From positions 1-64,000 of the IMG/VR virus record IMGVR_UViG_3300047480_000598: 64,000 nucleotides of DNA; one strand, given 5' to 3'. Origin of the DNA: a virus. How positions within the stretch are numbered: position 1 is the stretch's first letter; each line of letters starts with the position of its first letter. This document shows, in pieces, positions 1-13,879 of this stretch. Under the pieces are notes generated by a model, which saw nothing but the letters and a program-made list of their open reading frames with translations, had not been told where the DNA came from and did not search any database. The translations under genes were made by a program, and so were the position numbers.

Positions 1-2
1 GT

Positions 3-203
3 ATATACTTTGTTAACGGTGTACAAGCAACTAAACAACAAGTAGCATCGTATTGCACAGCAAGCGCAGCGCAAAAGCTACTACAAGATAACAGCATTGT
101 ACATAACGTAACACACGATGTACTGCATACTGTACATATACGCACTATAGCACTTGCTAACATTGTAAGTATAGCAGCTAATAAACAACAGCTTGTAGTG
201 TAA
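3..203 (+). CDS. 3' part of a hypothetical phage protein (5'-truncated by the window edge; not in ORF track)
   Basis: Open frame 3..203 = IYFVNGVQATKQQVASYCTASAAQKLLQDNSIVHNVTHDVLHTVHIRTIALANIVSIAANKQQLVV*, TAA at 201-203, followed by a terminator. Confidence 0.75.
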   Translation: MYFVNGVQATKQQVASYCTASAAQKLLQDNSIVHNVTHDVLHTVHIRTIALANIVSIAANKQQLVV

Positions 204-221
204 TAGCAACGCATTGTTGCA

Positions 222-254
222 AGCGCACAACTAAAAATTGTGCGCTATTTTTTT
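222..254 (+). terminator. Rho-independent terminator
   Basis: Stem AGCGCACAA (222-230)/TTGTGCGCT (238-246), then a T7 tract (248-254); a small GCAAC/GTTGC hairpin lies just upstream (206-220). Confidence 0.8.
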
Positions 255-256
255 AT

Positions 257-356
257 TATACACCCCGTCTTGCAGCAAAAAACCTAAGCAGCAGCGGTCG
301 GGAAGTACTTCGTATAGCACAGCAGCAGGTTTAAAAAACTACGGTCGGGGTATATA
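257..356. repeat. Nested dyad-symmetric element with internal direct repeats
   Basis: Palindrome GAAGTACTTC 302-311; AAACCT 280-285/AGGTTT 327-332; TATACACCCCG 257-267/CGGGGTATATA 346-356 (1 mismatch); all centred at 306-306.5. Direct repeats AGCAGCAG (287, 321) and CGGTCGGG (295, 342). Confidence 0.7.
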
Positions 357-389
357 TTTTAAATTGTTGCGCAAAAACAACAAACGCTG

Positions 390-445
390 TTCTCTTTTCT
401 CTCTTTTTCTTCAAATTCTCTTTTTCAAATCTTTTTCTTCTTCTT
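390..445. repeat. Polypyrimidine (T/C) low-complexity tract
   Basis: tctcttttctctctttttcttcaaattctctttttcaaatctttttcttcttctt; no G, and CTCTTTTTC..CAAAT occurs twice. Confidence 0.7.
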
Positions 446-580
446 AAAATTCATGGTATATAGGTAAGAAATCACCAGGGGAAAAGTTTAAGTACTGTTC
501 TTTTATTTTTCGTAAATCATTTTTTTACCCTGTAGGACCCATTTCGGAACAACGTGAAGAAGTGTGTCTCATTCGGGCAT

Positions 581-588
581 TATAAATA
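581..588 (+). promoter_or_regulatory. T4-type late promoter TATAAATA
   Basis: Exact T4 gp55 consensus, 5 nt upstream of ATG 594, with no Shine-Dalgarno in between. Confidence 0.7.
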
Positions 589-593
589 CTGTT

Positions 594-1124
594 ATGAAAA
601 TTAATGAAATCATCTCAGAAGCTCACCATTCCATATATCAATCTATTGGCATTGGACATTGGATTGTAGATATTGACACACATTTTATAGTTACTCTTAC
701 TGATCGAAGTGATGTGCTCAATCCAAAGGAAGTTTTCAATATTATAACACATGCCTGTCTCTCAGAAGAATTACAAAAGATTCCTCGTGGCACAGGTGCA
801 TTTGTTCAAGACGTAGTTTCTAAAATTTCTGTTTATCTATACCGTTATAAGAACAAGCCCAACCGATTACGTTTAGAAACCGTTCTCACTCCAGATATGA
901 TTCCAAAGGATCCCATTATTCATATATATGTTATACCTGATGACTACACAATATCTGCCCGTGACGTTAAGCGGATGGATCGAGCAAGATCAACTGTTCG
1001 CTCTATGGGCAGGGACGCTATTAGCCAAGATCTCGAGCAGGATAAGAATATTATGCACACCATGTCACAAATGAGTCGTAACGAGCGTAGGGCATTTAAA
1101 AAGTTTCTTCAGCGTACCAAATAG
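594..1124 (+). CDS. Putative internal head protein with CTS-like N-terminus (MKINEIISE)
   Basis: ORF track 564..1124; start moved to ATG 594, behind the late promoter; N-terminal motif shared with neighbours. Confidence 0.7.
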   Translation: MKINEIISEAHHSIYQSIGIGHWIVDIDTHFIVTLTDRSDVLNPKEVFNIITHACLSEELQKIPRGTGAFVQDVVSKISVYLYRYKNKPNRLRLETVLTPDMIPKDPIIHIYVIPDDYTISARDVKRMDRARSTVRSMGRDAISQDLEQDKNIMHTMSQMSRNERRAFKKFLQRTK

Positions 1125-1555
1125 CCCATTTTACCGTCGGAACTTTGAGCAGATTTAGTTTTGAATCCTTGTTGTTTAAGTATTCTCACAAATCTGTTAT
1201 AAAGTTTCTGACGGTTCAATTCTTCTGCGGTAAACTTTAGGGTAGCATCTTTGTGTTGCTGTTTAAAGTTTCTCAGAATATCTATTACAGTAGCAAACAC
1301 AGTTTTTGACTCAGATCCAAATTTGCCCGTAATACCATAAGGGTCGTTTGATTCAGGGTCTTTAAACTCCACATCCCAAACGTCCATAAACTTAAGTTCA
1401 CCGTGTTCGTCATATATGGGGATGAGGAGGAAAGTCACTTCCATATCAATATTGTTAACTTCAAAGTGTGCGACCTTATGATCGTTAGCCTGGATGTGCC
1501 ATTGCCAAGGTGCGGGTCGATCTAAAAATTCTGTAATAAATTCTTGTGCTTTCAT
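1109..1555 (-). CDS. Putative internal head protein with CTS-like N-terminus (MKAQEFITE)
   Basis: 148-aa ORF; N-terminus close to the T4 IPII/IPIII CTS MKTYQEFIAE. Confidence 0.7.
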   Translation of the reverse strand: MKAQEFITEFLDRPAPWQWHIQANDHKVAHFEVNNIDMEVTFLLIPIYDEHGELKFMDVWDVEFKDPESNDPYGITGKFGSESKTVFATVIDILRNFKQQHKDATLKFTAEELNRQKLYNRFVRILKQQGFKTKSAQSSDGKMGYLVR

Positions 1556-1656
1556 AGTATTAATGTGGGTAGATAATCGATTATATAATCTGTGCTACCG
1601 TTTTTCCGCTTCGCGGTTTTTGTGTTCTTCTATATTTATTTTTGATAATTAAGTAT

Positions 1657-2388
1657 ATGTTATGGATATATGGAGATAGTTACTCGGCAAATTTTGTTCA
1701 TTTGAAATCCACCTGGTCGTGGGTTCGCCGAATTAATCAAAGATTAGCTTGTGAATCAAAAAATTTTAGTTTTGCTGGATCTGGGTTGGGATATACGTAT
1801 TGTAAGTTCAATGAAACGTGTGATCAGTTTTCCGAAGGGGATCATGTTATCATTACTCTTACAAGTTTAAACCGACGATATTTCTTTTATGATCAGCCTA
1901 TGTTAGTAAACTTGTGGAATTTGAAATATCCTTCTTACGATATGAACGGGGACAGGATTAAATTCAACCCGTCGGAAGCTGATGCATTTAGAAAGTATTT
2001 TATGTTTTTAGATAAGAATACAAAGTTAGAAGAAGTAAATCTCATTAACTTTTTGACTATGGTAGATAGTATTAGTCGAAGGAAAAAGTTGGGTAGTGTA
2101 ACTATTATGTCTTGTTTTGAAGATTCTTATCTAGTTGCTAAAACAGTAGCAATGGAAAATGCAATTGTAGCTAGCGGGTGGTTATATAAGATTAGTACAG
2201 AAGAGTGTGCTCGAGAAGAGTTAGTTAGTCAAATTCAAACAGATGATAAGCGTGCATGTCATCTAAGTCAGCATAATCATGGCATTCTTTTGTCTAAACT
2301 CTATAATTCAATAGTGAATAAAACTCCGTTAGACCTTACGCAGGGATTTAAGAAAGGATTCATTCATGAGGTATGTGATGTTAAATGA
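1657..2388 (+). CDS. SGNH/GDSL hydrolase-like protein
   Basis: WIYGDSY (block I), NFSFAGSG (block II), C-terminal DKRACH; start at ATG 1657 matches paralogue 15013 (MTLWVFGDS); TAATTA 5 nt upstream. Confidence 0.65.
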   Translation: MLWIYGDSYSANFVHLKSTWSWVRRINQRLACESKNFSFAGSGLGYTYCKFNETCDQFSEGDHVIITLTSLNRRYFFYDQPMLVNLWNLKYPSYDMNGDRIKFNPSEADAFRKYFMFLDKNTKLEEVNLINFLTMVDSISRRKKLGSVTIMSCFEDSYLVAKTVAMENAIVASGWLYKISTEECAREELVSQIQTDDKRACHLSQHNHGILLSKLYNSIVNKTPLDLTQGFKKGFIHEVCDVK

Positions 2389-2935
2389 AAGTAGCCCCGA
2401 TACACCTCTTGGTAGTATTAGTCCCGATTTAAACCTAAGTAAGTTATGGTTATGTAACATGCTTAAGAAGTTTGAATTGACGAAATTTGATAACATTTAT
2501 ATTCTAGGTTCTTGGTATGGATCGATGGGCCTATTCTTATTAACAAAGGGTATTGAGTTTGATGATGCATATAACATTGACTGGGATCATGAAAAGACCA
2601 CCAATGTAATGCATATGTTAAAGCGTATGAAGTTAAATGATTGTATTCATGCTGTTCGAGCCGATGCAAATGATATTGAATATAAAGGTGATTGTCTAGT
2701 GATCAATACTTCAACGAATGACATCGAAGGGCGAGATTGGTTTGATAATATACCTTCGGATACTCCTGTAGTATTGCAAGGTAAGAGTGATCAAGAAAAG
2801 TCTAATGGGGAAGATACTATGGAAAAGTTTAATCGTGCATATCCGTTGAGTCAAACTTTATTGTTAGATTTCTTAACGGTGGAAGATGTTAAGGGCAATC
2901 CATATTCTAGATTTATGAAGATAGGTTACAAATGA
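2366..2935 (+). CDS. Class I SAM-dependent methyltransferase-like protein
   Basis: IYILGSWYG (motif I-like), NIDWD acidic second strand, ADAN, LVINTS. Confidence 0.55.
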   Translation: MRYVMLNESSPDTPLGSISPDLNLSKLWLCNMLKKFELTKFDNIYILGSWYGSMGLFLLTKGIEFDDAYNIDWDHEKTTNVMHMLKRMKLNDCIHAVRADANDIEYKGDCLVINTSTNDIEGRDWFDNIPSDTPVVLQGKSDQEKSNGEDTMEKFNRAYPLSQTLLLDFLTVEDVKGNPYSRFMKIGYK

Positions 2936-2958
2936 TCTTGTAGCGGTAAATATAAATT

Positions 2959-3771
2959 ATGCGTATACATGAAATTATTAGCGAAGCGGATACAGACCCT
3001 AAATTAATTCAACGAATGAAAGACTTGTGGGATCAAGGATACAGTTCGAAAGAAATCAGCAATGCACTTGGTTGGACTAAGAGTCAAATAGGCCATAATT
3101 TGAATCGACATTATCATGATCGCGAAGGCAAAAGAAAACCCCACCCTCCTGAACTAATTGCAAGAGTCGGCGAGTTGTGGGACGAAATTCCAAGTCCCAC
3201 AAAGATAGCAAAAGAATTAGGAAAAACAGTTCAAGAAATTAATACTATTCTATATCTATATCATTCTGATAGGATAAACAAGTTCGATAATTCTCGTAGT
3301 TTAACTGATCAAGAAATTCAAGATATAATATCGAGTTATTCTCAAGGCGAGACTACTAATAGTATATCCAGGAAATATAAAGTGTCTCCAACCTTTATAC
3401 AAGACCTTATTATGAGAGAGATTGGTAAAGATGCATATGATGAGATAATGAATTCTCGTAGATTAGTTCCAGGAGCCTTTGTACCTAACAAGATGACAGA
3501 CGAGATGAAAGAAACAATTATTAAATTATTTGTCTCTGGTTATAATTTTACTGACATAAAGAAACAAATTAACGATGTGTTAGTAAGAAGTACAATTAGT
3601 AAATTTTTAAAGAATCATCCAAATTGGAACCAAATGCTACAGGCACATAAGTTAGCTAGAGATCAAAAGAAGCCTCAAGTAGCAACAACTAAACGAATGA
3701 CCAGTAAGCCAATGAGCAAAGGCATTAAAGCTATTCGTAAAATCGGCCCTGTCACCGGAGGTAAATTATAA
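2959..3771 (+). CDS. Tandem helix-turn-helix protein with CTS-like N-terminus (MRIHEIISE)
   Basis: Four HTH-like units (GYSSKEISNALG, SPTKIAKELGKT, GETTNSISRKYKVS, GYNFTDIKKQI); basic C-terminus; TAAATA at 2947-2952. Confidence 0.65.
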   Translation: MRIHEIISEADTDPKLIQRMKDLWDQGYSSKEISNALGWTKSQIGHNLNRHYHDREGKRKPHPPELIARVGELWDEIPSPTKIAKELGKTVQEINTILYLYHSDRINKFDNSRSLTDQEIQDIISSYSQGETTNSISRKYKVSPTFIQDLIMREIGKDAYDEIMNSRRLVPGAFVPNKMTDEMKETIIKLFVSGYNFTDIKKQINDVLVRSTISKFLKNHPNWNQMLQAHKLARDQKKPQVATTKRMTSKPMSKGIKAIRKIGPVTGGKL

Positions 3772-3772
3772 G

Positions 3773-4621
3773 ATGAGATATAGAGAATTTTTACTAGAAA
3801 GTAGTTATGATTCTATGATTGTCAGTCTTAAGAATCAATATCGTGGGTCGAAACAACGTGAATTTATTGATAATTGTGTCCTCTTTGCAAAAACTAAATT
3901 AAAGAAAGATGAGCGTGTTGTATGGTTTTTACGTATAGCAAGATCTATTTTATTTGATATTAAAAATAAAACTAATACTAGATTTGAGCTTATAGGGTAT
4001 AATACTGTTCCTACAAAATTTTTAACTTATACTGTACCTTATTTTGAAGACGAACTTAGAGTTGCAGAGCACATTAATCAAGGGAATGTTAAATTTGATA
4101 ATTATATATTTGGAAACAAATCGTTATCGACAGTAATACATGATTTCAACAATATATCCGAAGAGTGGAAAGTAAAAAAATCATTAAAAAAAGTCCCTAT
4201 TCAACCCGGTGATAAAAAACTTATTGATTTTGGAGATGGGAGTGCATGGTGGTTTTTAGATCGTGCGGCGTGTGAGAAAGAAGCCACTGCCGGAAGACAT
4301 TGCGGGAATCGACCAAATCAATGGAGATCTAATCACCGATTACTTAGTTATCGAGAAAATGGTCGAGTAAAAATGACTTTTGTACTAGAAACTGACACTG
4401 GTATGCTATTAGATCGACGTGCAGTTGCAAATCAACATCCAGATCCAAAGTATTATGAAAAAATCATAGCACTTTTAAAACTTCCGATTATAACCGATCT
4501 ACTTCCTAAAGACGTAAGAAACGATTTTCAATTGTCGAATTTATCTCCAGCACAACAACACCAGCTTCGTATTGAAAAGCCTAGTTTGTTCAAACAAACT
4601 GATAAATGGGAAGCTGACTAG
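3773..4621 (+). CDS. PcfJ-like domain protein with CTS-like N-terminus (MRYREFLLE)
   Basis: EATAGRHCG...LLSYRE...MTF...RAVANQHP resembles the PcfJ EG..M.HCV..SLR..T.E..G..N..P pattern. Confidence 0.55.
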   Translation: MRYREFLLESSYDSMIVSLKNQYRGSKQREFIDNCVLFAKTKLKKDERVVWFLRIARSILFDIKNKTNTRFELIGYNTVPTKFLTYTVPYFEDELRVAEHINQGNVKFDNYIFGNKSLSTVIHDFNNISEEWKVKKSLKKVPIQPGDKKLIDFGDGSAWWFLDRAACEKEATAGRHCGNRPNQWRSNHRLLSYRENGRVKMTFVLETDTGMLLDRRAVANQHPDPKYYEKIIALLKLPIITDLLPKDVRNDFQLSNLSPAQQHQLRIEKPSLFKQTDKWEAD

Positions 4622-4638
4622 CGTAAGAGAAATAAGAC

Positions 4639-5496
4639 ATGAGATTTAAAGAATTTTTAATAGAGGCCTCTATCTATAATCTGATCAAGGGACATCCGCA
4701 TCGTAATCATATATTGGACACTGGTATCGTAAAAGAACTCAGTCATCAAGCAGATTTCAAAGAAGCGCCATTAGAAGATCTAAGCGAGTTTCCCGAAAAG
4801 TATCCTTATGATGATGCAGAGTATTATATCTATGTTCTTGTGTTAGGTGATCAAGGATCGGCATTATTACGGTATGATCGATATTATGACGATCATTCAT
4901 TTCTTGTCTATGGTATACAAACAATGCCAAATGGGGAAGTCAAAACTCGCTATAGTGTAACCGAACTCTTTTATCCTTATAATATTGTACAATTTTTACA
5001 TGGATATACCGGGGAAAATTCTAAAATGTATATGGCTCTAAACCCCGGAAATCAAGTTCGAGAACGACTTCGTCGTTCAAGAGTACAAACAAGACAGGTC
5101 CCATCGTTCGGCGAGTCCCTTAGAATCATGTATAAACACATTTTACCGATTATATCCGATGAAGTTCCTAAAGCATTATTTCGTATGCAATCTCTATACA
5201 GACAAGCAATTGAACAATCTAATTATGCACTTGCAGAACAGATCTCTCAAAAAGGTACACAACTTGACGCATTTTTAAGAGTAAAAGATACAGGTATTCT
5301 CAGGGTAGAAATTCACCCGATAGTATCTGGTATTGCTAAAAGAGGATATAAGACATGGGCACTTAAACGACGGCCAGGTGTTGTACCGCCTATTGAGCGA
5401 TGGGCACATAATGCTTCATCAATGTCAAAGCCAGAATTTAACTCGTTTGTAGAAGCATTTAAAGAATACCTATTTAATACTGAACCGATGGATTGA
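4639..5496 (+). CDS. CTS-tagged protein (MRFKEFLIE), member of the local six-gene paralogue family
   Basis: LSHQADF, LVLGDQGSAL and ILPII..AIEQSNYALAE motifs shared with genes at 7990-13875. Confidence 0.65.
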   Translation: MRFKEFLIEASIYNLIKGHPHRNHILDTGIVKELSHQADFKEAPLEDLSEFPEKYPYDDAEYYIYVLVLGDQGSALLRYDRYYDDHSFLVYGIQTMPNGEVKTRYSVTELFYPYNIVQFLHGYTGENSKMYMALNPGNQVRERLRRSRVQTRQVPSFGESLRIMYKHILPIISDEVPKALFRMQSLYRQAIEQSNYALAEQISQKGTQLDAFLRVKDTGILRVEIHPIVSGIAKRGYKTWALKRRPGVVPPIERWAHNASSMSKPEFNSFVEAFKEYLFNTEPMD

Positions 5497-5498
5497 CT

Positions 5499-6452
5499 AT
5501 GAGAGCAAATGAATTCATAAGTGAAGCGTTAAACACATCACGATATTCGGCACAAGTAACTAATGCTATGCTTGATAGTCTTGCAGAAATTATTATCACC
5601 GATTATAACGAATCTAATCGAAGAAGAGAATTTAATTTTGATATACAAAATAGTTTTTTAGAAGCTGCCGAAGCCTCCTTAAATTCTACTAAGCGGTGGG
5701 GGAACAAAAAGGTTAGTCTAGCATTTAGTAATAACACCGAAGGGGCAAGATTTAATAGAGCCACTTATGAAATGACTGTGTCATCTGGTTTTGTAGATAT
5801 ACTAGTACAAAACATTGAAGAATTTTGTGAGTTGTATATAAAGGAAAGACAAATTCCATTAAAGATATCTAACATCAAACCAGGATTATACAATAGTCCT
5901 GTTCATGATACTGTTTCGTTCATTGTAGGGTTAATAATACATGAATTCACACACGGAGTACAACAAACTCTACAAAAAAACATATACCCAACCCACGGGT
6001 ATCTTGCACCAAGAGCTGACGACTATGATGCAGCAATGTCTAGAATCAATAAATTGCCTTTGGAAAAAGATCATAAAATTTATGCTAGTAGTCCGGACGA
6101 AATCGGTGGTCATGCCGCGCAAGCAGCCGGTCGAATAATTTCGTTAATGGCTCATATGCCAAAAGAAGAACAAATTAAGAAATTACAAAAATTACTTAGC
6201 AACCCTAAAGAGTTTGTTTCTATAGTAGCTCGTGGTGTTAAAGATACTGCGTTTAATGTATTAAGATTTAATCAATCGCATAGAAAGGAAAAATATGTAT
6301 TTGATCAATATTTAAAACGATGTTATGAGTTACTTCTTGATTATTTAAAATATATTCAAGGTCGTAATGTTAATCCTACGATCGATGATAAAGTTAATGC
6401 TAACTATGAAAAATGGTTAAAATCTCAAAAAGGGCCGGGAAACAAAAAATGA
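5499..6452 (+). CDS. Zincin-like metallopeptidase domain protein with CTS-like N-terminus (MRANEFISE)
   Basis: IIHEFTHGVQ (HExxH) plus downstream YASSPDEIGGHA third-ligand motif; start moved from 5493 to ATG 5499. Confidence 0.65.
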   Translation: MRANEFISEALNTSRYSAQVTNAMLDSLAEIIITDYNESNRRREFNFDIQNSFLEAAEASLNSTKRWGNKKVSLAFSNNTEGARFNRATYEMTVSSGFVDILVQNIEEFCELYIKERQIPLKISNIKPGLYNSPVHDTVSFIVGLIIHEFTHGVQQTLQKNIYPTHGYLAPRADDYDAAMSRINKLPLEKDHKIYASSPDEIGGHAAQAAGRIISLMAHMPKEEQIKKLQKLLSNPKEFVSIVARGVKDTAFNVLRFNQSHRKEKYVFDQYLKRCYELLLDYLKYIQGRNVNPTIDDKVNANYEKWLKSQKGPGNKK

Positions 6453-7669
6453 GATATAGAGAATTTTTACTAGAAGCCAAACCTGACAATTTAGGTGATG
6501 GATTAATCAAAAAAATTGGGCAAGCATATTTTCGAAAAGTAAGAGTTATGCCCAATGCTGAATCTACCGATCCTGTTGCAGTTGATCAAGCAGTATTACA
6601 AACAGGATATAGTTTAGCAGATAGCATGTATAATCATGTCGGACCTAAGAATCTAATATGGGTTGCAAAACAATTTGTACAAGATCCTCACTTTATGCCC
6701 GAAGATTTTCCTGCGTGGGCTGATACATTAGGTGAATATACTTCGGCAGTCGATGCCCGTAAACCTATTGAAAGAGATCTTAACAAGTTTGCAAACATTA
6801 ATCAATTAAGGACAGAAATTCGCAAGTATCAAGATGAAGCTGTAGGAGAAGTTTACGACATTATTGTTCCTGTATTAGACAAGTTTGTTCAACAAGGTCA
6901 AGCAGCATGGTTATATAAAGGAAAAGACTATGCTATCTATCGTCCCGACACTTGGCAAGCCAGTAATGAGTTTTATCGAGTATTAAACAACAAGGGAATC
7001 AACACAAGTTTGTGTGTAACATACAGTGAAGATATGTATAAACAGTATACTAAGCGTGGCGTATTTGTTTTAATCATTGCACCGGATACGGCTTACATCT
7101 CTTATATTAGTACTGGAGATACTAACGGCCATTATGCTGCAACTTCGGAGTTTTCGGATATGTACAATGATCATCAACATGGATTAGAAGAACAAATTAA
7201 GATGTTCCCGAGACTTAAACCGATCCTAGCCGACTATGCAAAAGAGAGTAATGATGTCGAAGTATTAATCTATCTAAATCCTGCATTAGCAAAGAAGAAG
7301 TATCCAGAGATGATGAATCTTGTAGAGAAATATAATATACGACTTATTAGCCCTGAATCTGATGTAGCAGTCGAGCATGGTGACCCCGAATACTTAGATG
7401 TTGATCAAGCAGAAAATTTTGTGAAAGTTATGAATGATCCGAAGAACTCTAAAGAAGTTAACAGACTAAAAAACCTAAAAGAATATGGGTTACGTGCTTT
7501 AGGTATCTCAAAGACTGAAAAATCAATCTTCGGAACTCCGCTTATATTATGCCAGATTCCTGGCTCTAGTTTTGGTTTTGGAGACAGGGATAACTTTGAA
7601 CTATTTCCAGCCGAATTCCTGTGGTCAGACATACATGAAGATTACTTGATTAATATTCTAGCTTTTTGA
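6449..7669 (+). CDS. CTS-tagged protein (MRYREFLLE), related to the 13880 protein
   Basis: ATGA overlap with the upstream stop at 6449-6452; YAIYRP..AS...TSLCVT..MYKQYTKRGVFVLI aligns with YKIFIV..AA...AIWCTG..HFIHYTSKAMVFVV. Confidence 0.65.
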   Translation: MRYREFLLEAKPDNLGDGLIKKIGQAYFRKVRVMPNAESTDPVAVDQAVLQTGYSLADSMYNHVGPKNLIWVAKQFVQDPHFMPEDFPAWADTLGEYTSAVDARKPIERDLNKFANINQLRTEIRKYQDEAVGEVYDIIVPVLDKFVQQGQAAWLYKGKDYAIYRPDTWQASNEFYRVLNNKGINTSLCVTYSEDMYKQYTKRGVFVLIIAPDTAYISYISTGDTNGHYAATSEFSDMYNDHQHGLEEQIKMFPRLKPILADYAKESNDVEVLIYLNPALAKKKYPEMMNLVEKYNIRLISPESDVAVEHGDPEYLDVDQAENFVKVMNDPKNSKEVNRLKNLKEYGLRALGISKTEKSIFGTPLILCQIPGSSFGFGDRDNFELFPAEFLWSDIHEDYLINILAF

Positions 7670-7912
7670 TTGTTGAAATTTAGTAAATCGTCCCTTCTCA
7701 CCACGTACTTGAGGACCAATCGGTTGACGACCTTGTTTAGCTTGACTAATAGCAATGTCTGTGCCGTTATTAAAGCTATTGCTCGGTGTAGATTGTTTAC
7801 GTCCAGTATTATGTTTTCGTTCCCATTCCCATCCGGCTTTATGCCCCGAACAGTCTTTTGTACATTGGCGCCCAAAGAAACTTAACTCGGTAATAATTTC
7901 TATAATTTTCAT
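7658..7912 (-). CDS. Small CTS-tagged protein (MKIIEIITE) with CTKDCSGHxAG motif
   Basis: 84-aa ORF; TAAATA (7918-7923, minus strand) 5 nt upstream; C-terminal RGEKGRF. Confidence 0.65.
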   Translation of the reverse strand: MKIIEIITELSFFGRQCTKDCSGHKAGWEWERKHNTGRKQSTPSNSFNNGTDIAISQAKQGRQPIGPQVRGEKGRFTKFQQSKS

Positions 7913-7989
7913 TATAATATTTATGTGTTCTTAAAGTTAAATGTAAAATAAAAAGAGAATAAATATACAATAACCATTTGGACAAAAAT

Positions 7990-10260
7990 ATGCCAACTAA
8001 ACCTACAGATACAAGAACAAATGCATTCCCAGAATTAGATGATTTTGACGGAATTCTAAAACCAAAGAAAGTAAACCCTTTATCAAAAGTTGAACCAGAA
8101 CCAGAACGTCATAGTCGTTCTAAAGCAGGTGACCCGGACTTAAGAAGAGCTTCTGCTGCTGATACAAGAGCAGCAACATCTGGAATTAATATTTCAGCAG
8201 GTGGAAGAGATAGATTACATCAAATGCCAGATCTTGGTCCTGACGAAATTGACGATGAAGAAGCGGCAAGACGAGCTGGATTAAGGCATGGCGGAGGACT
8301 TGAACCTCGTGAACCGGGTACTGACTTAGTGCAGCCGCGAGATTTAGCGAATGCTGCTCAAAATGCAGTTCAAGTTCAAGGTATGCAAAATCCTAAGTGG
8401 CATGCTATAAGACATTTGCCTGCATACTTAGCTAGTCAAGTTCGTAAGATGGGACGGGGAACATTTGGATTAATAACAGATACTCCTATTGAAGATATTA
8501 TTACTATTGCAAATTTAGGCGGACAAGGCCCAAACACTATAGAAGAAGTTAATGCAGTAGCAGGATGGATAATAGCCAACGGAGAGTTTGTTCGTAATGT
8601 TGATTTTGATTTTAGTCAAGTTATGCCCGATTACGAACCGTTAGTACGAGAATTTCGTGTTGGCGGTATACGATTCCACCTTGTACAAGATGATCGAGGA
8701 AATCCGGACGACTTTGACCCAAACGATCCAAGCAAGAAGGGAACATACGTTTATGCTTATCCTGAGCAAGATGCCAAGGAACCAGAATCGTTAGTAGTTA
8801 CTGATATTGGTCTTCCGGGACCCCCCGGCGGTATGCGTAGATTACCGAGATTTGAAGGTGAATCTTTAGCAAACGAAATGAGAAGAACTATTCAATTATT
8901 AGAATCGTCATATAGTAGTCCTTACGATATATTTAAAATGCAACAACCACAGGATAATAAAAAGGAGAGTAAAGTGGCCAGTTTATCGGATGAAATTAGA
9001 AAGAACATTCAATTATTAGAATCATTAGAAGAAGATATCGAAGGTTCGAAAGAAATTGATCAACTAATGGAAGAATTAGTTGCATTAGAAGCATATCGTG
9101 GAAAAGCGTCGAAGGCACGATATATGGACCCAGAAGCTCAAAAGAAGCGTATGGCTCGTCATTCGACATTAGCACCTTTAATATCAAAAGATCCTGGCGG
9201 ACCTCGATTAATTAGTTGGTTGCATAAGCAGTTAGGACTATCGGCGGAAGCTGACTGGGGCAGAGATCAGGCAGTTCGTTACAATGCAGCAACAATGCCG
9301 CATATGCCTAAGCAATCAGACAAAGAAATTTCTACTAGGTGGGGTTCCGGTGTATGGAGTGACAAAGTTAGAGATTCTCGTCAGTTATGGAGTATCATTA
9401 AGAGCTCTCCGGATAATTTCATCGTTTTTGTTGGAGAAAAAGGTGTAGGTGCAGTTCGTCCGAAGCCTGGTTATATCGAATCCATGAGAAAGTCCAAGGA
9501 CAACTATGAACCGGCGGCCGATAGAAACTTACCTTACATTTATGCGTTCTTTACAGCTGATCAGCAATGGTATAATAACAGCTCCGATGATGCTGGGGTA
9601 TTTGATCCGGACACCGGAAAGATTGCAACTAGAGGAGGATTATTCCATGGAGGAGATCAAAATTTTAATATAGTCGATGCTGTTACATCAATGATCGGTA
9701 AACTTAAACGAGCATATGCTGCATATCCTGCACCGGCTGATTATCCTCATCCTGAAGATCTAGAGTACGACGACGAAGGAAATCCGATCCCACGTTCGAA
9801 AGATAGACCATCGGTTGAAAGAGAAAAGATTGCTCAAAGAGCAGCATCAAGAGCAACCCCGGCAAATACTCGTAGTAAACATCAATTAGAAAGTGATGTA
9901 TTTGAAAAAATTAAACCTGTTATGTCTAAACTTTGCAAAAATGCTGTAGGAATGGTTAATCGAAAGGCACAGAGAGCAGTTAACGGCGGTAACTGGGACG
10001 AGGCCCAAAGAGTGGCTAGAGTAGGTAACACGCTTAACACAATTATTGCTGCACTTGACAATCCGCAAGAACCAGGTGTGCCTTATCAACTAAGTGAGAA
10101 ATATAGAAGCGCATTGCAATATGCTGCATCGGAACACGGAGTCAATATCAGAGATGATCAAGATTACAAAGACTTCTTATTGTCTGCATTAACCGCCGGT
10201 CCCGAAACTAAGTCGATCCTTGATGCGGTACGTTCGGTATTAGTCGGTGTACAACTTTAA
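7990..10260 (+). CDS. Large multidomain putative head protein; C-terminal half belongs to the local paralogue family
   Basis: ORF track 7978..10260 (TTG start); ATG 7990 more likely; TAAATA 7960-7965; internal repeats EMRRTIQLLES / EIRKNIQLLES. Confidence 0.7.
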   Translation: MPTKPTDTRTNAFPELDDFDGILKPKKVNPLSKVEPEPERHSRSKAGDPDLRRASAADTRAATSGINISAGGRDRLHQMPDLGPDEIDDEEAARRAGLRHGGGLEPREPGTDLVQPRDLANAAQNAVQVQGMQNPKWHAIRHLPAYLASQVRKMGRGTFGLITDTPIEDIITIANLGGQGPNTIEEVNAVAGWIIANGEFVRNVDFDFSQVMPDYEPLVREFRVGGIRFHLVQDDRGNPDDFDPNDPSKKGTYVYAYPEQDAKEPESLVVTDIGLPGPPGGMRRLPRFEGESLANEMRRTIQLLESSYSSPYDIFKMQQPQDNKKESKVASLSDEIRKNIQLLESLEEDIEGSKEIDQLMEELVALEAYRGKASKARYMDPEAQKKRMARHSTLAPLISKDPGGPRLISWLHKQLGLSAEADWGRDQAVRYNAATMPHMPKQSDKEISTRWGSGVWSDKVRDSRQLWSIIKSSPDNFIVFVGEKGVGAVRPKPGYIESMRKSKDNYEPAADRNLPYIYAFFTADQQWYNNSSDDAGVFDPDTGKIATRGGLFHGGDQNFNIVDAVTSMIGKLKRAYAAYPAPADYPHPEDLEYDDEGNPIPRSKDRPSVEREKIAQRAASRATPANTRSKHQLESDVFEKIKPVMSKLCKNAVGMVNRKAQRAVNGGNWDEAQRVARVGNTLNTIIAALDNPQEPGVPYQLSEKYRSALQYAASEHGVNIRDDQDYKDFLLSALTAGPETKSILDAVRSVLVGVQL

Positions 10261-10290
10261 TATTAATTGGTGTAGACCTTTAGTATAAGT

Positions 10291-11175
10291 ATGTCACTTG
10301 CGGCTGAGAGAATTAGAGAACTATTAAACGCGATCGAACTCTCTCAGCCGCATCTTCTACTCGAAGAGACGGATTACAACATCTTAAAAAATGCTGTTGG
10401 TGGAAAAGAATTGTTTAAGTTCTTACGACAGAAAAATTTAACTAATCATTTAGGTGATTTTCAAGAAGCAGAGACTGGTCCTAATGGGTATCCTTCGATA
10501 TACCAGTTTGGGATTGCTGTAGGGGATAGCGGATGTGCATTTCTTGAATATGTCGGTGTTACTTATAGTCAATACAAAACAAATATATGGGTCCGAAATA
10601 ACAATGGGGAATTAGAACATAACGTTAAAAATGCTAATGCATTTGCTGTAAAAGAGCTTGTAGGACCAAATACAAAATTCTTTACAACTGGAATGTTTAG
10701 TACTGGAAAAGGCGAAGATGATCGTTTAAAATCTCGCAATTTAACACGGGTTAGAAATTACTCTAAAAACGAAAACTTGAATTATAACTTTAAACATATT
10801 ATATTTTATAACCTAATTCCAGTTTTAGTTCCTATACTTAAAAAATCTTTGTTAGATTCTCGGGATACTCTAAAAGATGCATTTGCTCGAGGTGATTACG
10901 CAGCAGCTGAGTCTTTAAGTAAACAATTAAATGATATCAATTCGGCAATAGTTGATTTGGGTCCCACAGAAAGAATTACACTTGGAGTGATGCCTCACAC
11001 TTTTATTCGAAATTTAGTTTTTGATGCTATCGAACAAACTTTTAACAGAATAGACAGCTCACACCCTGGAAAAGAAGCTAGAAGAATCGAATGGGGTGTA
11101 GCTGTAGCAAAGGGAGATAAGAAAGGCCTAGCGCAAATCATTCGAACTATTAAACAAAAGTTACATGTGAGATAA
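10291..11175 (+). CDS. Paralogue-family putative head/ejected protein
   Basis: N-term ERIRELLNAIE; GGKELFKFLR, AVGDSGCAF, LIPVL..DAFARGDYAAAE. Confidence 0.7.
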   Translation: MSLAAERIRELLNAIELSQPHLLLEETDYNILKNAVGGKELFKFLRQKNLTNHLGDFQEAETGPNGYPSIYQFGIAVGDSGCAFLEYVGVTYSQYKTNIWVRNNNGELEHNVKNANAFAVKELVGPNTKFFTTGMFSTGKGEDDRLKSRNLTRVRNYSKNENLNYNFKHIIFYNLIPVLVPILKKSLLDSRDTLKDAFARGDYAAAESLSKQLNDINSAIVDLGPTERITLGVMPHTFIRNLVFDAIEQTFNRIDSSHPGKEARRIEWGVAVAKGDKKGLAQIIRTIKQKLHVR

Positions 11176-11177
11176 AA

Positions 11178-12050
11178 ATGTCTACAGAACAAATTCGATC
11201 GTTATTAAACATACTGACAGAAGAACAAGATACTAAAATATTGAAGGGTGTAATCGGTGGGAAACAACTAGTACGATATCTTCGTCAAAGTGGTGTGTTT
11301 ACTCACTTAGCAGACTTTGTCGAAACTCCGTACGATATTAATCAAGCATATTATTCTCAAACAATCGTAGTCGGCGAACATGGCTGTGCATTTATGACCG
11401 GAAAGTCGACCGGAAGAATAGGTGATCTGCCTGACTGGAGTATTAAAGTATTTTATGATTCTGGATATGGGACTGCCCTCTTTAGCGTCGAAGGATTTCC
11501 TTACGGTATGGAGGAAAAAATCGGTCCAATTCGAAAGATGTATGTAAATGTAGAACCTGAAAAAAGTCAGCCTCGAAAATTTCCTAGAAAAGTAAATCGA
11601 AATCAAGAATTACAAGATCAGTATAGATTTGTTAGACACGAATTTGTGACAAGGATGTTTGAAAGACTAGTACCAGTTATGATTCCAGTAATTAAGCAAT
11701 CAGTAAATTCAATCAAACCAGCAATGAGTGATGCAGTTAATAACGGTGACTATGATCGATTAGAAATATTATCTAGAAGAGCAAACGTTCTAGATTATGT
11801 AATTGCCGGAATTAACCAATCAGAAAACGAATTATCTCCGCAACTCGAAGCTATTCTCAGTCAAATTATTATTCGTGTTTATTCTTTAACTACTGGGACA
11901 GAAGTCGACGATTACGATGATGTACGAGGTAGAACTATGATAGGTTCAACATACGACTATGTTGAATGGGCGTATACAACATATCGAGACAACAAATACC
12001 TCCCACAATTTGTTAAAGCATTTAAAGATTACTTGGCAGGAAAGATATAA
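11178..12050 (+). CDS. Paralogue-family putative head/ejected protein
   Basis: MSTEQIRSLLNILTE; GGKQLVRYLR, VVGEHGCAF, LVPVM..DAVNNGDYDRLE. Confidence 0.7.
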   Translation: MSTEQIRSLLNILTEEQDTKILKGVIGGKQLVRYLRQSGVFTHLADFVETPYDINQAYYSQTIVVGEHGCAFMTGKSTGRIGDLPDWSIKVFYDSGYGTALFSVEGFPYGMEEKIGPIRKMYVNVEPEKSQPRKFPRKVNRNQELQDQYRFVRHEFVTRMFERLVPVMIPVIKQSVNSIKPAMSDAVNNGDYDRLEILSRRANVLDYVIAGINQSENELSPQLEAILSQIIIRVYSLTTGTEVDDYDDVRGRTMIGSTYDYVEWAYTTYRDNKYLPQFVKAFKDYLAGKI

Positions 12051-12910
12051 TGAGCACTGAACAAATTAGATCACTATTAAATTTATTAAACGAATCGATA
12101 TTAGTCGAAGATAATATAAGTCAAATTTTGAATAGTGCCCCTTCTGGAGAATCTCTTAAGAAATATCTTTTAGGACGTATAATGTCTCACAAATCTAATT
12201 TTGAAAAAGGCACATTGTCGAGTATTATGAAAAGTAGAACTAAATTTTCTAAAGATAATAATGCAATAATAATCGGAACACAAGGGTGTGCATACAAACC
12301 AGCCGACGATGACGATTTTACTGACGGGGGAGCAGTACATATGTTTTCACCTTATGCTACTAGTCGCAGCAGGCCATATCTCGGATCGTATATGGTTATC
12401 AGTGGTAGGGTTGCAGATTTAAAACAAGTAATCGGTGATATAAAGGCAGTATATGTTGCAACAAATTTAATCGCTAAGGAAAAATCGGATGAGCAACGAT
12501 TTAGCAGATTCAAAGATCATTACAGTTACGTGCATACAATTAATAAAACAATATTACCGGTAATAGTTTCATATGAGCATCAGGTAATTAACAATTTAAA
12601 GAATAAAATTCATGATTTGTTTCGTGACGGAAAATATGAAGAAGCAGAACGAGTATCTAAATTTGCAAATTATGTTGTAAGATTATACACAGATTTTAAA
12701 AATCCTAATTCTGGAGCAGCATTTCGTTTTATGGAAACTGTCTTAAAAAATTTACTTATGAATCGTAGTATGGATTCTACCGGAGATTTTCAGGGGTTTA
12801 TAGATCAAGAAAAATTATCAAATTTTGTGATGGATGTTGCAACCGGAAGCACGACAAATCGATTAAAAGTGATACGATTCATTAAAAATTATTTGTCCGG
12901 AAATCAATAA
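12050..12910 (+). CDS. Paralogue-family putative head/ejected protein
   Basis: MSTEQIRSLLNLLNE; IIGTQGCAY, ILPVI..DLFRDGKYEEAE; TAATG stop/start coupling. Confidence 0.7.
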   Translation: MSTEQIRSLLNLLNESILVEDNISQILNSAPSGESLKKYLLGRIMSHKSNFEKGTLSSIMKSRTKFSKDNNAIIIGTQGCAYKPADDDDFTDGGAVHMFSPYATSRSRPYLGSYMVISGRVADLKQVIGDIKAVYVATNLIAKEKSDEQRFSRFKDHYSYVHTINKTILPVIVSYEHQVINNLKNKIHDLFRDGKYEEAERVSKFANYVVRLYTDFKNPNSGAAFRFMETVLKNLLMNRSMDSTGDFQGFIDQEKLSNFVMDVATGSTTNRLKVIRFIKNYLSGNQ

Positions 12911-13875
12911 TGAGTACGCAAGATTTTCGACATTTAATCAATCTTCTAACGGAATCGGCTGAACAGTTAAACGAAGCGCGGGCAACATCTATCTTAAAAA
13001 TTAACGAAAGTCGAAAAATTCTCTTAGAAGATCAACTCGGTCGAGTGTTAAGTAAAGAAGTCGGCGGCGATCAACTAATGAATATGTTAAGGTCTTTTCG
13101 AATAGTGTATAATGATGCAAAATTTGAAGAAGTTCCTTATAGTACATTACTCGACGATGATTTTTTTAAGCAACCGATGCAAGCAGTTGTCGTTGGGACA
13201 ACAGGTTGTGCTGTAGTACGTCCCGGAGGCCCGGGCCCATTTTTAAAGTATTTTGTTCGAGGCTATGAGAAAAAAGCAAAACTAAATCCGGAATATTTTA
13301 CAGCTAATCAACCTGGTCAGATGCTACACTTTATCGGCAATATTAAAAACTGTTATTTGATTCGTAATCCAAGACCGCAGACACAAGGATTAGAAATAAG
13401 AAGACAAAATAGAGCAAGTGAATATAAAAACGAAGAAACTTTAATGGATCAAATCTTTAAACGAATTCGTCCGATATTAGCACCAATCATTAAAAAATCT
13501 TTCTTAGAAGTGCAACGCTTGTACAAAGATGCTATCAATAATGGAGACTATCAGACCGCAGAGATGTACGGTAGTGCTGCTTCTAAATCAAATACTTTAC
13601 TTGCTATTTTATCAAAAGATGATTTAACATCTCTCCCAGGGCACGATGGCGGAGTTAATTATAGTCGTAAATTTGTCGAGATAGTTCGAAATGCATTTAC
13701 TGATATGTATAAAAAATATCCTCCTTATGATTTATATGGTGGCCCGGAGGATACTGCTGAAGATGTAGAAGCTATGAAACTTTATTCGAACTTTTTAAGT
13801 AATGCAGCAGATAATACCGGTAAAGAGGTTAAATACATTATTGATAGATTTAGAGAATATTGCTTAACAGGATAA
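12910..13875 (+). CDS. Paralogue-family putative head/ejected protein
   Basis: MSTQDFRHLINLLTE; GGDQLMNMLR, VVGTTGCAV, IRPIL..DAINNGDYQTAE. Confidence 0.7.
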   Translation: MSTQDFRHLINLLTESAEQLNEARATSILKINESRKILLEDQLGRVLSKEVGGDQLMNMLRSFRIVYNDAKFEEVPYSTLLDDDFFKQPMQAVVVGTTGCAVVRPGGPGPFLKYFVRGYEKKAKLNPEYFTANQPGQMLHFIGNIKNCYLIRNPRPQTQGLEIRRQNRASEYKNEETLMDQIFKRIRPILAPIIKKSFLEVQRLYKDAINNGDYQTAEMYGSAASKSNTLLAILSKDDLTSLPGHDGGVNYSRKFVEIVRNAFTDMYKKYPPYDLYGGPEDTAEDVEAMKLYSNFLSNAADNTGKEVKYIIDRFREYCLTG

Positions 13876-13879
13876 TTAA

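What the first reader, a model, noticed from the sequence alone, without database searches (positions are those of the whole stretch)
1..256. Coding DNA purged of GA/GG/TC/CC dinucleotides, apparently at the cost of protein sequence
Seen: positions 1-240 contain only four GR/YC dinucleotides (GA x2, GG x1, TC x1, CC x0). A sampled ordinary 60-mer of this window (601-660) has about 14, and GATC, TCGA and GAATTC sites are common elsewhere (e.g. GAATTC at 3450 and 5511). The encoded 66-aa fragment has no Glu, Pro or Trp, one Gly and two Asp, and is Q/N/A/V-rich (NGVQATKQQVA..TASAA), as if E>Q, D>N and P>A substitutions were forced at the DNA level. The depletion is strand-symmetric (GA=TC, GG=CC) and ends at the terminator. 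Established: many restriction sites contain these dinucleotides, T5 first-step-transfer DNA lacks common restriction sites, and some phage base-modification enzymes are context-specific. Inference: this is the right edge of a specialised zone, either first-injected DNA that evades restriction or context-specific damage, or DNA kept free of the phage's own modification so host RNA polymerase can read it.
Basis: partly seen in the sequence, partly recalled or inferred. Interest (0 to 1): 0.88.

Follow-up and report, generated by a model that had tools for sequence, protein, structure and literature searches.

The report
Phage early genes banning four dinucleotides
The first 250 bases of this window end a block of first-expressed genes of an uncultured giant phage that selection has rewritten, proteins included, to avoid the DNA steps TC and CC (here also GA and GG), probably so these genes escape something that reads those steps, most likely the phage's own guanine modification or the host terminator Rho.

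Summary
Observation confirmed and much enlarged. Window 1-240 has 4 GA/GG/TC/CC against a mean of 43 elsewhere. It is the 3' end of a real, conserved 203-aa early gene at the right edge of a ~7.6-kb array of sigma70-promoter/terminator cassettes that lies mostly upstream of the contig start.

The basic rule is strand-specific. Early transcription units lack 5'-YC-3' on the sense strand, which means no GA/GG on the template, whichever way they point. A subset, including the window's gene, also lacks GA/GG on the sense strand, and its proteins lose Asp, Glu, Gly, Pro and Trp.

76 related loci keep the rule. Unpurged homologues carry D/E/G/P at the conserved columns where purged ones have N/Q/A/S, so the nucleotide constraint bends the protein.

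General restriction-site avoidance, a chimeric join, hypermutation and UV are rejected. The agent is unproven. My ranking:
- A template kept free of the phage's own GA/GG guanine modification, as inferred for the relative PA5oct: 0.4.
- Rho-proof transcripts, since Rho's primary site binds YC: 0.25.
- Another YC-specific enzyme: 0.15.

This scan has noted the same phenomenon on other phage DNA at least ten times. I found no publication of it.

The parts
1..203 (+). Last 66 codons plus stop of a conserved 203-aa early gene. It is 'class D': free of YC and GR on both strands. The protein is nearly devoid of D/E/G/P/W.
   Evidence: It is the only frame of six without stops over 203 codons. It has 170 homologues at 50-95% identity. 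The AF2 model has pLDDT 94.9. Against an 84%-identical relative there are 28 synonymous and 27 non-synonymous codon changes.
222..256 (+). Intrinsic terminator of the cassette: stem AGCGCACAA / TTGTGCGCT followed by a T-run. The stem is itself built without the four dinucleotides.
   Evidence: L002 12561-12585 corresponds to window 222-246
257..356 (.). Boundary or inter-cassette dyad element, CACCCCG (261-267) ... GAAGTACTTC (302-311) ... CGGGG (346-350). It marks the end of the purged domain. Related CCCC...GGGG-bracketed elements separate all cassettes.
   Evidence: first-reader note e1-5740322
383..452 (+). TC-rich, G-poor tract (15 YC and 2 G in 70 nt) just after the zone. It is a candidate transcription barrier between early and late genes, either as a rut-like site or as a GA-dense template.
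   Evidence: It ranks 6th on the + strand of 162 kb, and the others I inspected in that list look like antisense of acidic coding sequence. It is the top-scoring tract of its locus. Counterparts in relatives are tandem arrays of period 11-12.
582..589 (+). T4-type late promoter motif TATAAATA in front of the first normal-composition gene (594-1124, N-terminus MKINEIISE).
   Evidence: Read directly from the sequence. The late-gene assignment is my inference from knowledge of T4.

Best explanation
Window 1-256 is the end of the last cassette in an array of about 15 monocistronic early cassettes of a partial (about 44% complete) uncultured T4-like jumbo myophage. Each cassette has a sigma70-type promoter, a small gene and an intrinsic terminator.

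Shown: selection keeps every early transcription unit free of 5'-GA/GG-3' on its template strand, which is the same as no TC/CC in the message. In some cassettes, this one included, both strands are kept free, even at the price of removing Pro, Asp, Glu, Gly and Trp from the proteins.

Inferred, and my preferred mechanism: the phage replaces or decorates guanine at GA/GG steps throughout its genome, with a 7-deazaguanine-type modification as inferred for its cultured relative PA5oct. The genes that unmodified host RNA polymerase must read from the incoming DNA are written so that their template carries no modified guanine. For the most urgent cassettes the whole duplex, including the -35 hexamer, carries none. 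This would avoid either a stall of the polymerase or template lesions made by host enzymes that attack modified bases. The TC-rich tract after the zone would then be a GA-dense template barrier in front of the late genes.
For: 1. The rule follows the sense strand. In relative L008, + genes have TC 0 and CC 0 with normal GA/GG, while - genes have GA 0 and GG 0 on the + strand. In 54 of 65 single-strand-purged domains, including all 5 minus-strand ones, the longest ORF is on the YC-free strand.
2. Tolerance is close to zero per site. YC-free runs reach 1,729-1,975 nt. Observed YC is 0 against 5-38 expected given the proteins. This fits a one-hit obstacle.
3. The double purge covers untranscribed -35 hexamers. 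Class D zones use TTGCAA or TTGCAT (six times in L021), while class S zones use TTGACA. This points to a DNA-level reading.
4. The dinucleotide set is exactly the one inferred for the modified G of PA5oct. PA5oct's tail sheath is 49% identical to this phage's. [quoted passage not shown] Phage iggy modifies at GA and CAjan at GA and GGC (PMC10484667 and PMC7544227, seen as title and abstract).
5. Relative G001 encodes FolE (1e-47), PTPS (2e-13) and a radical-SAM/Fer4_12 QueE-like protein.
6. Specificity varies by lineage. In L015/L052, GA/TC is purged more than GG/CC. The purge has been lost at least 4-6 times on the family tree. This is what one expects from a variable enzyme.
7. PA5oct itself has a 311-nt GR-free (and 217-nt YC-free) segment with two TTGCAA-17-TATAAT promoters in front of its tRNA array.
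Against: - No deazaguanine gene (TGT, QueC, FolE, PTPS, radical SAM) was found in the 162 kb held for this phage.
- No TGT/DpdA was found in five related records. This is uninformative, because complete PA5oct has none either.
- G001, the one relative with the pathway, has an almost unpurged homologue.
- PA5oct's early region is not purged.
- Class S promoters keep TTGACA, whose G would be modified.
- Late genes of normal composition must be read by the same core polymerase, so an extra adaptation step has to be assumed.
- No base modification has been measured in this phage.
Confidence: 0.4

Rival explanations
1. Rho-proof early transcripts. The RNAs are written without YC, the dinucleotide bound by each of the six primary-site clefts of the host terminator Rho. 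Rho therefore cannot load on early messages before ribosomes or phage anti-Rho functions protect them. Each cassette ends in an intrinsic terminator, and a YC-rich, G-poor tract after the zone acts as a deliberate rut site that insulates the late genes.
For: - The purge is exactly YC and sits on the RNA-sense strand.
- The Rho primary binding site has six clefts, each taking one YC (PMC5314796; PMC12360218).
- Rho restricts T4 transcription to immediate-early RNA in vitro (PMC2988021).
- The cassettes have strong intrinsic terminators.
- At the zone edge sits the locus's top YC-minus-G tract. In two lineages it is a perfect tandem array of period 11 or 12 with about 5 copies, 51-69 nt long. 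This matches [(YC)N9-13]n and the 57-nt primary-site footprint (PMC6144790).
- YC occurs in promoter spacers down to -13 but never from -12 onward (n=18).
- Weak lead: the best structural match of the 203-aa protein is the Sm-like Rho inhibitor YaeO/Rof (Z 6.9, 68 residues aligned).
Against: - Rho binds cooperatively to several YC, so zero tolerance and the loss of all prolines are more than expected.
- The extra GA/GG purge, including -35 hexamers and non-coding DNA, is not explained.
- In L015/L052, CC is relaxed while TC stays purged, although CC is a good Rho ligand.
- T4 early genes and PA5oct show no YC depletion.
- The arrays could instead be phased T-tracts or GA-dense templates.
Confidence: 0.25
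2. Escape from another enzyme with YC (or GR) dinucleotide specificity that acts on early mRNA or on the exposed non-template strand. Candidates are a cytosine deaminase, an endoribonuclease or an ADP-ribosyltransferase. It could be a host defence or a phage-injected host-shutoff effector to which the phage's own first messages are immune.
For: - The purge is sense-strand specific with one-hit strictness.
- Enzymes with dinucleotide-level specificity on mRNA exist. From my own knowledge, CmdT ADP-ribosylates A in GA; the preprint appeared in the list (10.1101/2024.02.24.581662) but I did not read it.
- Specificity varies by lineage.
- The zone lies next to an array of genes with capsid-targeting-like N-termini, so injected effectors are plausible (note e1-5740323).
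Against: - I know of no enzyme with YC specificity on RNA or on transcribed ssDNA in bacteria, and none was found in the window.
- It does not explain purged -35 hexamers or the double purge.
- C content is not lowered in the zone (0.225 against 0.178 genome-wide), so this is selection rather than a mutational footprint.
Confidence: 0.15
3. Double-strand target avoidance in first-entering DNA, as in T5 first-step transfer. The zone would lack restriction sites or CRISPR PAMs (CC, TTC, NGG) so that it survives until anti-defence proteins are made.
For: - In the window's cassette the purge is strand-symmetric and includes non-coding DNA.
- From my own knowledge, many PAMs and restriction sites contain these dinucleotides.
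- The zone proteins are small and very acidic, like typical anti-defence proteins.
Against: - Most of the zone is purged on one strand only, and that strand flips with gene orientation. A duplex-reading nuclease cannot explain this.
- Allowed palindromic 4-mers are enriched, not avoided.
- A cut anywhere else in the genome would still be lethal unless DNA entry is stepwise, which is unknown. No terminal repeat is seen in the contig.
Confidence: 0.07
4. Not a real feature: an assembly chimera at the contig start, or simply an odd Q/N/A-rich protein whose composition produces the dinucleotide pattern.
For: - The contig begins inside the gene, and two other assemblies break at or in this gene.
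- Homologues share the odd amino-acid composition.
Against: - Contigs from at least 4 samples span the site at 99.8-100% identity.
- Synonymous sites and codon boundaries are purged beyond what the protein dictates.
- Non-coding promoters, UTRs and terminators are purged too.
- Homologues with normal DNA composition have normal amino-acid composition.
Confidence: 0.01

Closest known systems
Motif-specific 7-deazaguanine DNA modification of phages (CAjan: GA and GGC; iggy: GA; PA5oct: modified G inferred at GA and/or GG)
   Same: It has the same dinucleotide set (G followed by a purine). PA5oct is a structural relative of this phage. One relative of this phage carries FolE, PTPS and QueE-like genes. 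Motif specificity varies between lineages.
   Different: No modification has been measured here. No DpdA/TGT was found, though PA5oct has none either. None of the titles, abstracts or passages I saw for these phages mentions a kilobase-long motif-free early region or recoded proteins. PA5oct has only 200-300-nt motif-free promoter islands.
Phage strategies against Rho-dependent termination (lambda N and Q, P4 Psu; endogenous Rof and Hfq)
   Same: The goal would be the same: early phage transcripts that Rho cannot stop. The recognition unit avoided, YC, is exactly what Rho's primary site binds.
   Different: All known strategies use trans-acting proteins or RNA elements. Immunity written into the whole transcript by removing every YC has not been described. 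It also would not explain the GA/GG purge.
Dinucleotide suppression in viruses of eukaryotes (CpG against ZAP, TC against APOBEC3) and restriction-site or PAM avoidance in phages
   Same: The principle is the same: remove the short word that an enemy, or one's own enzyme, reads.
   Different: Those cases are partial and genome-wide, and mostly affect synonymous sites. Here the purge is local (early units only), strand-specific, essentially absolute, and overrides amino-acid choice.
T5 first-step-transfer (pre-early) region
   Same: Both are specialised blocks of first-expressed small genes, bounded by repeat- and palindrome-rich DNA.
   Different: Whether this zone is at a terminus is unknown. 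There is no general lack of restriction sites. The rule is a strand-specific dinucleotide ban.

Membership tests
7-deazaguanine (DpdA-type) phage DNA modification system | preQ0/CDG biosynthesis genes (FolE, QueD/PTPS, QueE, QueC) in the phage genome | tested here: inconclusive
   None was found in the 162 kb of G000, which is 44% complete. Relative G001 has FolE, PTPS and a QueE-like radical SAM protein.
7-deazaguanine (DpdA-type) phage DNA modification system | DNA-guanine transglycosylase of the TGT/DpdA family | tested here: inconclusive
   PF01702 was not found in G000, in 5 related records or in complete PA5oct. PA5oct is nevertheless inferred to carry modified G, so the absence is uninformative.
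7-deazaguanine (DpdA-type) phage DNA modification system | Modified guanine present in virion DNA at a defined short motif | not testable with these tools
   This needs LC-MS, restriction digests or native long-read signal.
Rho-dependent termination signals (rut) and Rho evasion | Recognition through 5'-YC dinucleotides on the nascent RNA | tested here: met
   The purge is exactly TC plus CC on the sense strand of each unit, whichever its orientation.
Rho-dependent termination signals (rut) and Rho evasion | rut site: G-poor, unstructured, about 60-90 nt, with YC spaced by 9-13 nt | tested here: inconclusive
   Window 383-452 and the period-11/12 arrays in L012 and L008 fit by sequence. Function is untested, and other readings exist.
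Rho-dependent termination signals (rut) and Rho evasion | Dependence on Rho activity (bicyclomycin, rho mutants, in vitro termination) | not testable with these tools
   This requires experiments.
Rof/YaeO Sm-like Rho inhibitors (for the 203-aa protein) | Sequence membership in the Rof family, or clear fold identity over the domain | tested here: inconclusive
   No Pfam family matched at E<=0.1. VIA-align gave Z 6.9, rmsd 2.2, 68 of 77 residues, with Hfq/Sm and WYL domains at Z 5-5.8. This is below the level at which fold identity can be trusted.
T5-like first-step-transfer DNA | General scarcity of restriction sites | tested here: not met
   Allowed palindromic 4-mers number 59 against 45 expected. 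GCGC, AGCT, GTAC, ACGT and TGCA are all enriched.
T5-like first-step-transfer DNA | Location at the leading genome terminus inside a terminal repeat | tested here: inconclusive
   The contig has no terminal repeat, but it is a fragment and the ends are unknown.

The most novel reading that the evidence does not exclude
A clade of giant phages writes its entire immediate-early programme in a reduced alphabet of 14, or in places 12, of the 16 dinucleotides. This forces proline-free and even Asp/Glu/Gly/Trp-free proteins. In the most novel reading that is not excluded, the agent is not the phage's own base modification. It is a sequence reader of the transcription process itself. One version is cis-encoded immunity to Rho, with designed rut arrays as insulators. 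Another is a phage-injected YC-specific effector that destroys host messages while sparing the phage's own.
Probability: 0.35. Interest if true: 0.92.

Novelty: new variant of a known kind. Interest (0 to 1): 0.85.

Why it matters
This appears to be the strongest case I know of in which a nucleic-acid-level constraint dictates protein composition in a virus. Whole folded proteins (AF2 pLDDT 95) are built without five amino acids.

Whatever reads GA/GG or TC/CC is important enough to shape kilobases of sequence in many uncultured freshwater and saline giant phages, and marine ones according to earlier notes of this scan.

It would predict the presence and motif of DNA hypermodification from metagenomes alone, mark the true immediate-early genes, and imply that modified G is a barrier to host RNA polymerase or a target of host enzymes.

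Either way the zone pinpoints a rich set of unknown host-takeover proteins, including a SutA-like RNA-polymerase binder. It also gives design rules for modification-free or terminator-proof expression cassettes.

Tried and rejected
**Searches that found nothing**
- No DNA or protein match for the region or the 203-aa protein among 50,697 GenBank phages.
- Rfam gave nothing above threshold.
- PHROGs and Pfam gave no family for the 203-aa protein, even using its normal-composition homologues.
- A PDB profile search and Foldseek against PDB gave nothing. BFVD gave only uncharacterised phage proteins.
- The window's own contig has no terminal repeat and no continuation at its other end.
- Why assemblies break in this gene is unresolved. 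An 84%-identical strain shows no mosaic boundary at window position 1.

**Jobs that gave no usable result**
- Complex prediction of the E. coli Rho N-terminal domain with the 203-aa family gave no verdict, neither support nor evidence against.
I therefore have no read depth, no RNA evidence and no check for antisense transcripts.

**Ideas rejected**
- RNA structure as the cause of the double purge: the mRNA folds no better than shuffles (z = -0.48).
- UV-photoproduct avoidance: AA and TT are not depleted (odds 0.88 and 1.22).
- Deaminase hypermutation as a purely mutational origin: C content and GC are higher in the zone than in the genome.
- General restriction-site avoidance.
- A codon or tRNA explanation: codon boundaries and non-coding DNA are purged too.
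- T4 as a precedent: its first 50 kb of early and middle genes show no YC depletion.
- A promoter-boundary test to separate the RNA-level and template-level models was not decisive.

Full report
**1. The observation**

Window 1-240 contains GA twice, GG once, TC once and CC never. That is 4 in total, against a mean of 43.2 (sd 7.6) for 240-nt windows of the 64 kb. The lowest unrelated window has 20. Poisson P is 3e-14. In the whole 162,335-bp contig no other place comes close.

The window is the start of an IMG/VR record that is linear and estimated 44% complete. The phage is a myovirus. Its tail sheath is 42-49% identical to those of the jumbo phages Phosso, Atu_ph07 and PA5oct. The other contig end is ordinary and there is no terminal repeat.

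**2. What lies upstream**

A JGI metagenome contig (L001/L002) is 100% identical to window 1-7830 and runs 12.3 kb further upstream. Contigs from three more samples agree at 99.6-99.98%. So there is no chimeric join.

The 66-codon fragment in the window is the end of a 203-aa gene. Upstream lie about 15 monocistronic cassettes. Each has a near-consensus sigma70 promoter, a small ORF and a hairpin-plus-T-run terminator. They are separated by repeat elements that do contain the four dinucleotides. One 45-aa product passes the Pfam threshold for the SutA RNA-polymerase-binding domain (1.9e-7). Most of the others are very acidic (D+E 19%). I read the block as the early, host-takeover region; this is an inference.

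Downstream of the zone comes a TATAAATA motif, the T4 late-promoter type (my knowledge), and then genes of normal composition.

**3. The gene is real**

- Over the 203 codons only one of six frames is open. The others hold 5-22 stops.
- There are 170 homologues at E<1e-3 and 50-95% identity, on contigs up to 345 kb.
- Against an 84%-identical strain there are 28 synonymous and 27 non-synonymous codon differences.
- AlphaFold gives pLDDT 94.9 and pTM 0.87.
- No Pfam, PHROG or PDB family is recognised. BFVD gives only uncharacterised phage proteins.
- The exhaustive fold comparison puts the Sm-like Rho inhibitor YaeO/Rof first (Z 6.9, 68 residues). Hfq/Sm and WYL domains follow at Z 5-5.8. At this level that is only a lead.

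**4. The rule behind the observation**

Counting by gene and by strand shows that the wider zone is depleted of TC and CC on the sense strand only. The relative L008, at 60% protein identity, makes this plain:

- Its + strand genes have TC 0 and CC 0 with normal GA/GG and no proline.
- Its two - strand genes have GA 0 and GG 0 on the + strand.

Resampling synonymous codons gives YC 0 observed against 5-17 expected, with GR as expected, in these 'class S' genes. In 'class D' genes both are purged:

| Gene | YC observed / expected | GR observed / expected |
|---|---|---|
| L008 homologue | 0 / 37.7 | 1 / 17.3 |
| This phage's 203-aa gene | 6 / 45.8 | 8 / 21.3 |

Across 76 related loci, 54 of 65 single-strand-purged domains carry their longest ORF on the YC-free strand. 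This includes all five minus-strand domains. YC-free runs reach 1,729-1,975 nt, even in a locus with 52% GC.

The window shows the symmetric variant only because it holds a class D cassette.

**5. The protein is bent by the nucleotide rule**

Of 56 homologous genes, 23 have no YC at all and 24 have at most two GR. About ten are not purged. Those ten carry D, E, G and P at conserved columns where purged members have N, Q/T, A and S:

| Unpurged homologues | Purged homologues |
|---|---|
| YFEH-TDCYS | YFTH-TNCYS |
| LTPSA | LTASA |
| IALENI | IALANI |
| IDG | INN |

On the family tree the unpurged members are scattered (at least 4-6 changes) and sit on long branches. This phage is 'partial', while its sister L025 is fully purged. 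One lineage (L015/L052) purges GA/TC more than GG/CC.

**6. What it is not**

- Not general restriction avoidance. GCGC, AGCT, GTAC, ACGT and TGCA are enriched.
- Not a mutational footprint. C is 22.5% in the cassette against 17.8% genome-wide.
- Not UV avoidance. AA and TT are not depleted.
- Not RNA structure (z = -0.48).
- Not codon usage. Codon boundaries, UTRs, promoters and terminator stems obey the rule.
- T4's early and middle genes show nothing similar.

**7. Candidate mechanisms**

Two readers with exactly this specificity are known.

[quoted passage not shown] PA5oct also has QueE and PTPS genes (PMC12191111). Phage iggy modifies at GA and CAjan at GA and GGC (abstract and title seen).

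Relative G001 has FolE, PTPS and a QueE-like radical-SAM protein. TGT/DpdA is absent from all records searched, but also from complete PA5oct. PA5oct has two small doubly purged islands. One holds tandem TTGCAA-17-TATAAT promoters before its tRNA array, in the same style as this phage's class D promoters.

This model explains four things:
- the template-strand rule;
- the one-hit strictness;
- the purge of -35 hexamers in class D zones, which use TTGCAT or TTGCAA against TTGACA in class S zones;
- the lineage-specific subsets.

Its weaknesses are these:
- nothing has been measured;
- G000 shows no pathway genes;
- G001 is nearly unpurged;
- PA5oct's early region is not purged;
- class S promoters keep a GA.

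(b) *Rho.* Its primary site has six clefts, each binding one YC (PMC5314796; PMC12360218). Rho limits T4 early transcription (PMC2988021).

After the zone edge comes the locus's most YC-rich, G-poor tract: window 383-452, with 15 YC and 2 G in 70 nt. In L012 and L008 the counterpart is a perfect tandem array of period 11 or 12 with about 5 copies. This is the geometry of [(YC)N9-13]n and of the 57-nt footprint (PMC6144790).

The same tract is, however, a GA-dense template and a phased T-tract. Rho also does not explain the zero tolerance, the GA/GG purge or the CC-relaxed lineage.

A third class, an unknown YC-specific enzyme acting on RNA or on the non-template strand, cannot be excluded.

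My ranking is: own modification 0.40, Rho 0.25, other enzyme 0.15, duplex target avoidance 0.07.

**8. Context and novelty**

This scan has noted the same kind of island on at least ten other phage DNAs. Those are unchecked notes. One of them led me to PMC12191111. Others report GG/CC-only variants, which I did not test.

My six literature searches returned no published description. I rate it a new variant of a known principle (removing the word that is read), but an extreme one: local, strand-specific, near-absolute and overriding amino-acid choice.

Noticed in passing
window 257-356: A 100-bp dyad element sits exactly at the composition boundary: CACCCCG ... GAAGTACTTC ... CGGGG. Every cassette spacer upstream is bracketed by CCCC ... 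GGGG in the same way. The residual YC islands in relatives are a conserved element, gCCCC-N5-CCCCGCTGCTTACGTG ... GGGGCAC. The core GGCCCCGCTGCT is shared by L002, L008 and L021. Its function is unknown.
   Followed up: partly
window 594-15004: A series of normal-composition genes begins with T4 capsid-targeting-like N-termini (MKINEIISE, MKAQEFITE, MRIHEIISE and others). The first is preceded by TATAAATA. Relatives have similar genes beside their purged zones (MRYREFKIVEG, MRIDEIIDE, MKIFEIISE). None of ten tested has a Pfam family.
   Followed up: partly
L002 5375-5512 (about 6.9 kb upstream of window position 1): A 45-aa early protein passes the Pfam gathering threshold for the SutA RNA-polymerase-binding domain (E 1.9e-7). 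This suggests direct targeting of host RNA polymerase and a proteobacterial host.
   Followed up: partly
window 1 (contig start); L007, L022, L092: At least four assemblies from different samples begin or end inside or right beside this gene. Two of them start at the very same base. The cause (repeats upstream, coverage change, strain variation) was not resolved because read data were unavailable.
   Followed up: partly
L094/L097/L093 (relative G001: 243-249 kb and 211 kb): A gene cluster of GTP cyclohydrolase I, phosphoribosyltransferase, a GMP-reductase/IMPDH-like protein, a HIT protein and a radical-SAM/Fer4_12 (QueE-like) protein. A PTPS gene sits elsewhere, next to an NAD-dependent sugar epimerase/dehydratase. 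This is a candidate pathway for a 7-deazaguanine-type, possibly glycosylated, base.
   Followed up: partly
L112 3254-3560 (PA5oct 267,253-267,563): The cultured phage PA5oct has a 311-nt GA/GG-free (and 217-nt TC/CC-free) intergenic segment. It holds two tandem TTGCAA-17-TATAAT promoters directly upstream of its tRNA array. A second such island lies at 239,300-239,498.
   Followed up: partly
L012 1521-1571; L008 10812-10880; L026: Perfect tandem arrays (TTTCTTCTATT x4.6; TCCTACGCTTTT x4.8) lie 200-250 nt after the stop of the 203-aa gene, on the sense strand, where the purged zone ends.
   Followed up: yes
L002 10572-10874 (window -1767 to -1465): A second doubly purged gene encodes a 100-aa protein with weak HTH_17/MerR-type helix-turn-helix matches. 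It has almost no D/E/G/P. It has no Shine-Dalgarno sequence, and neither do the other class D genes whose upstream sequence I read.
   Followed up: partly
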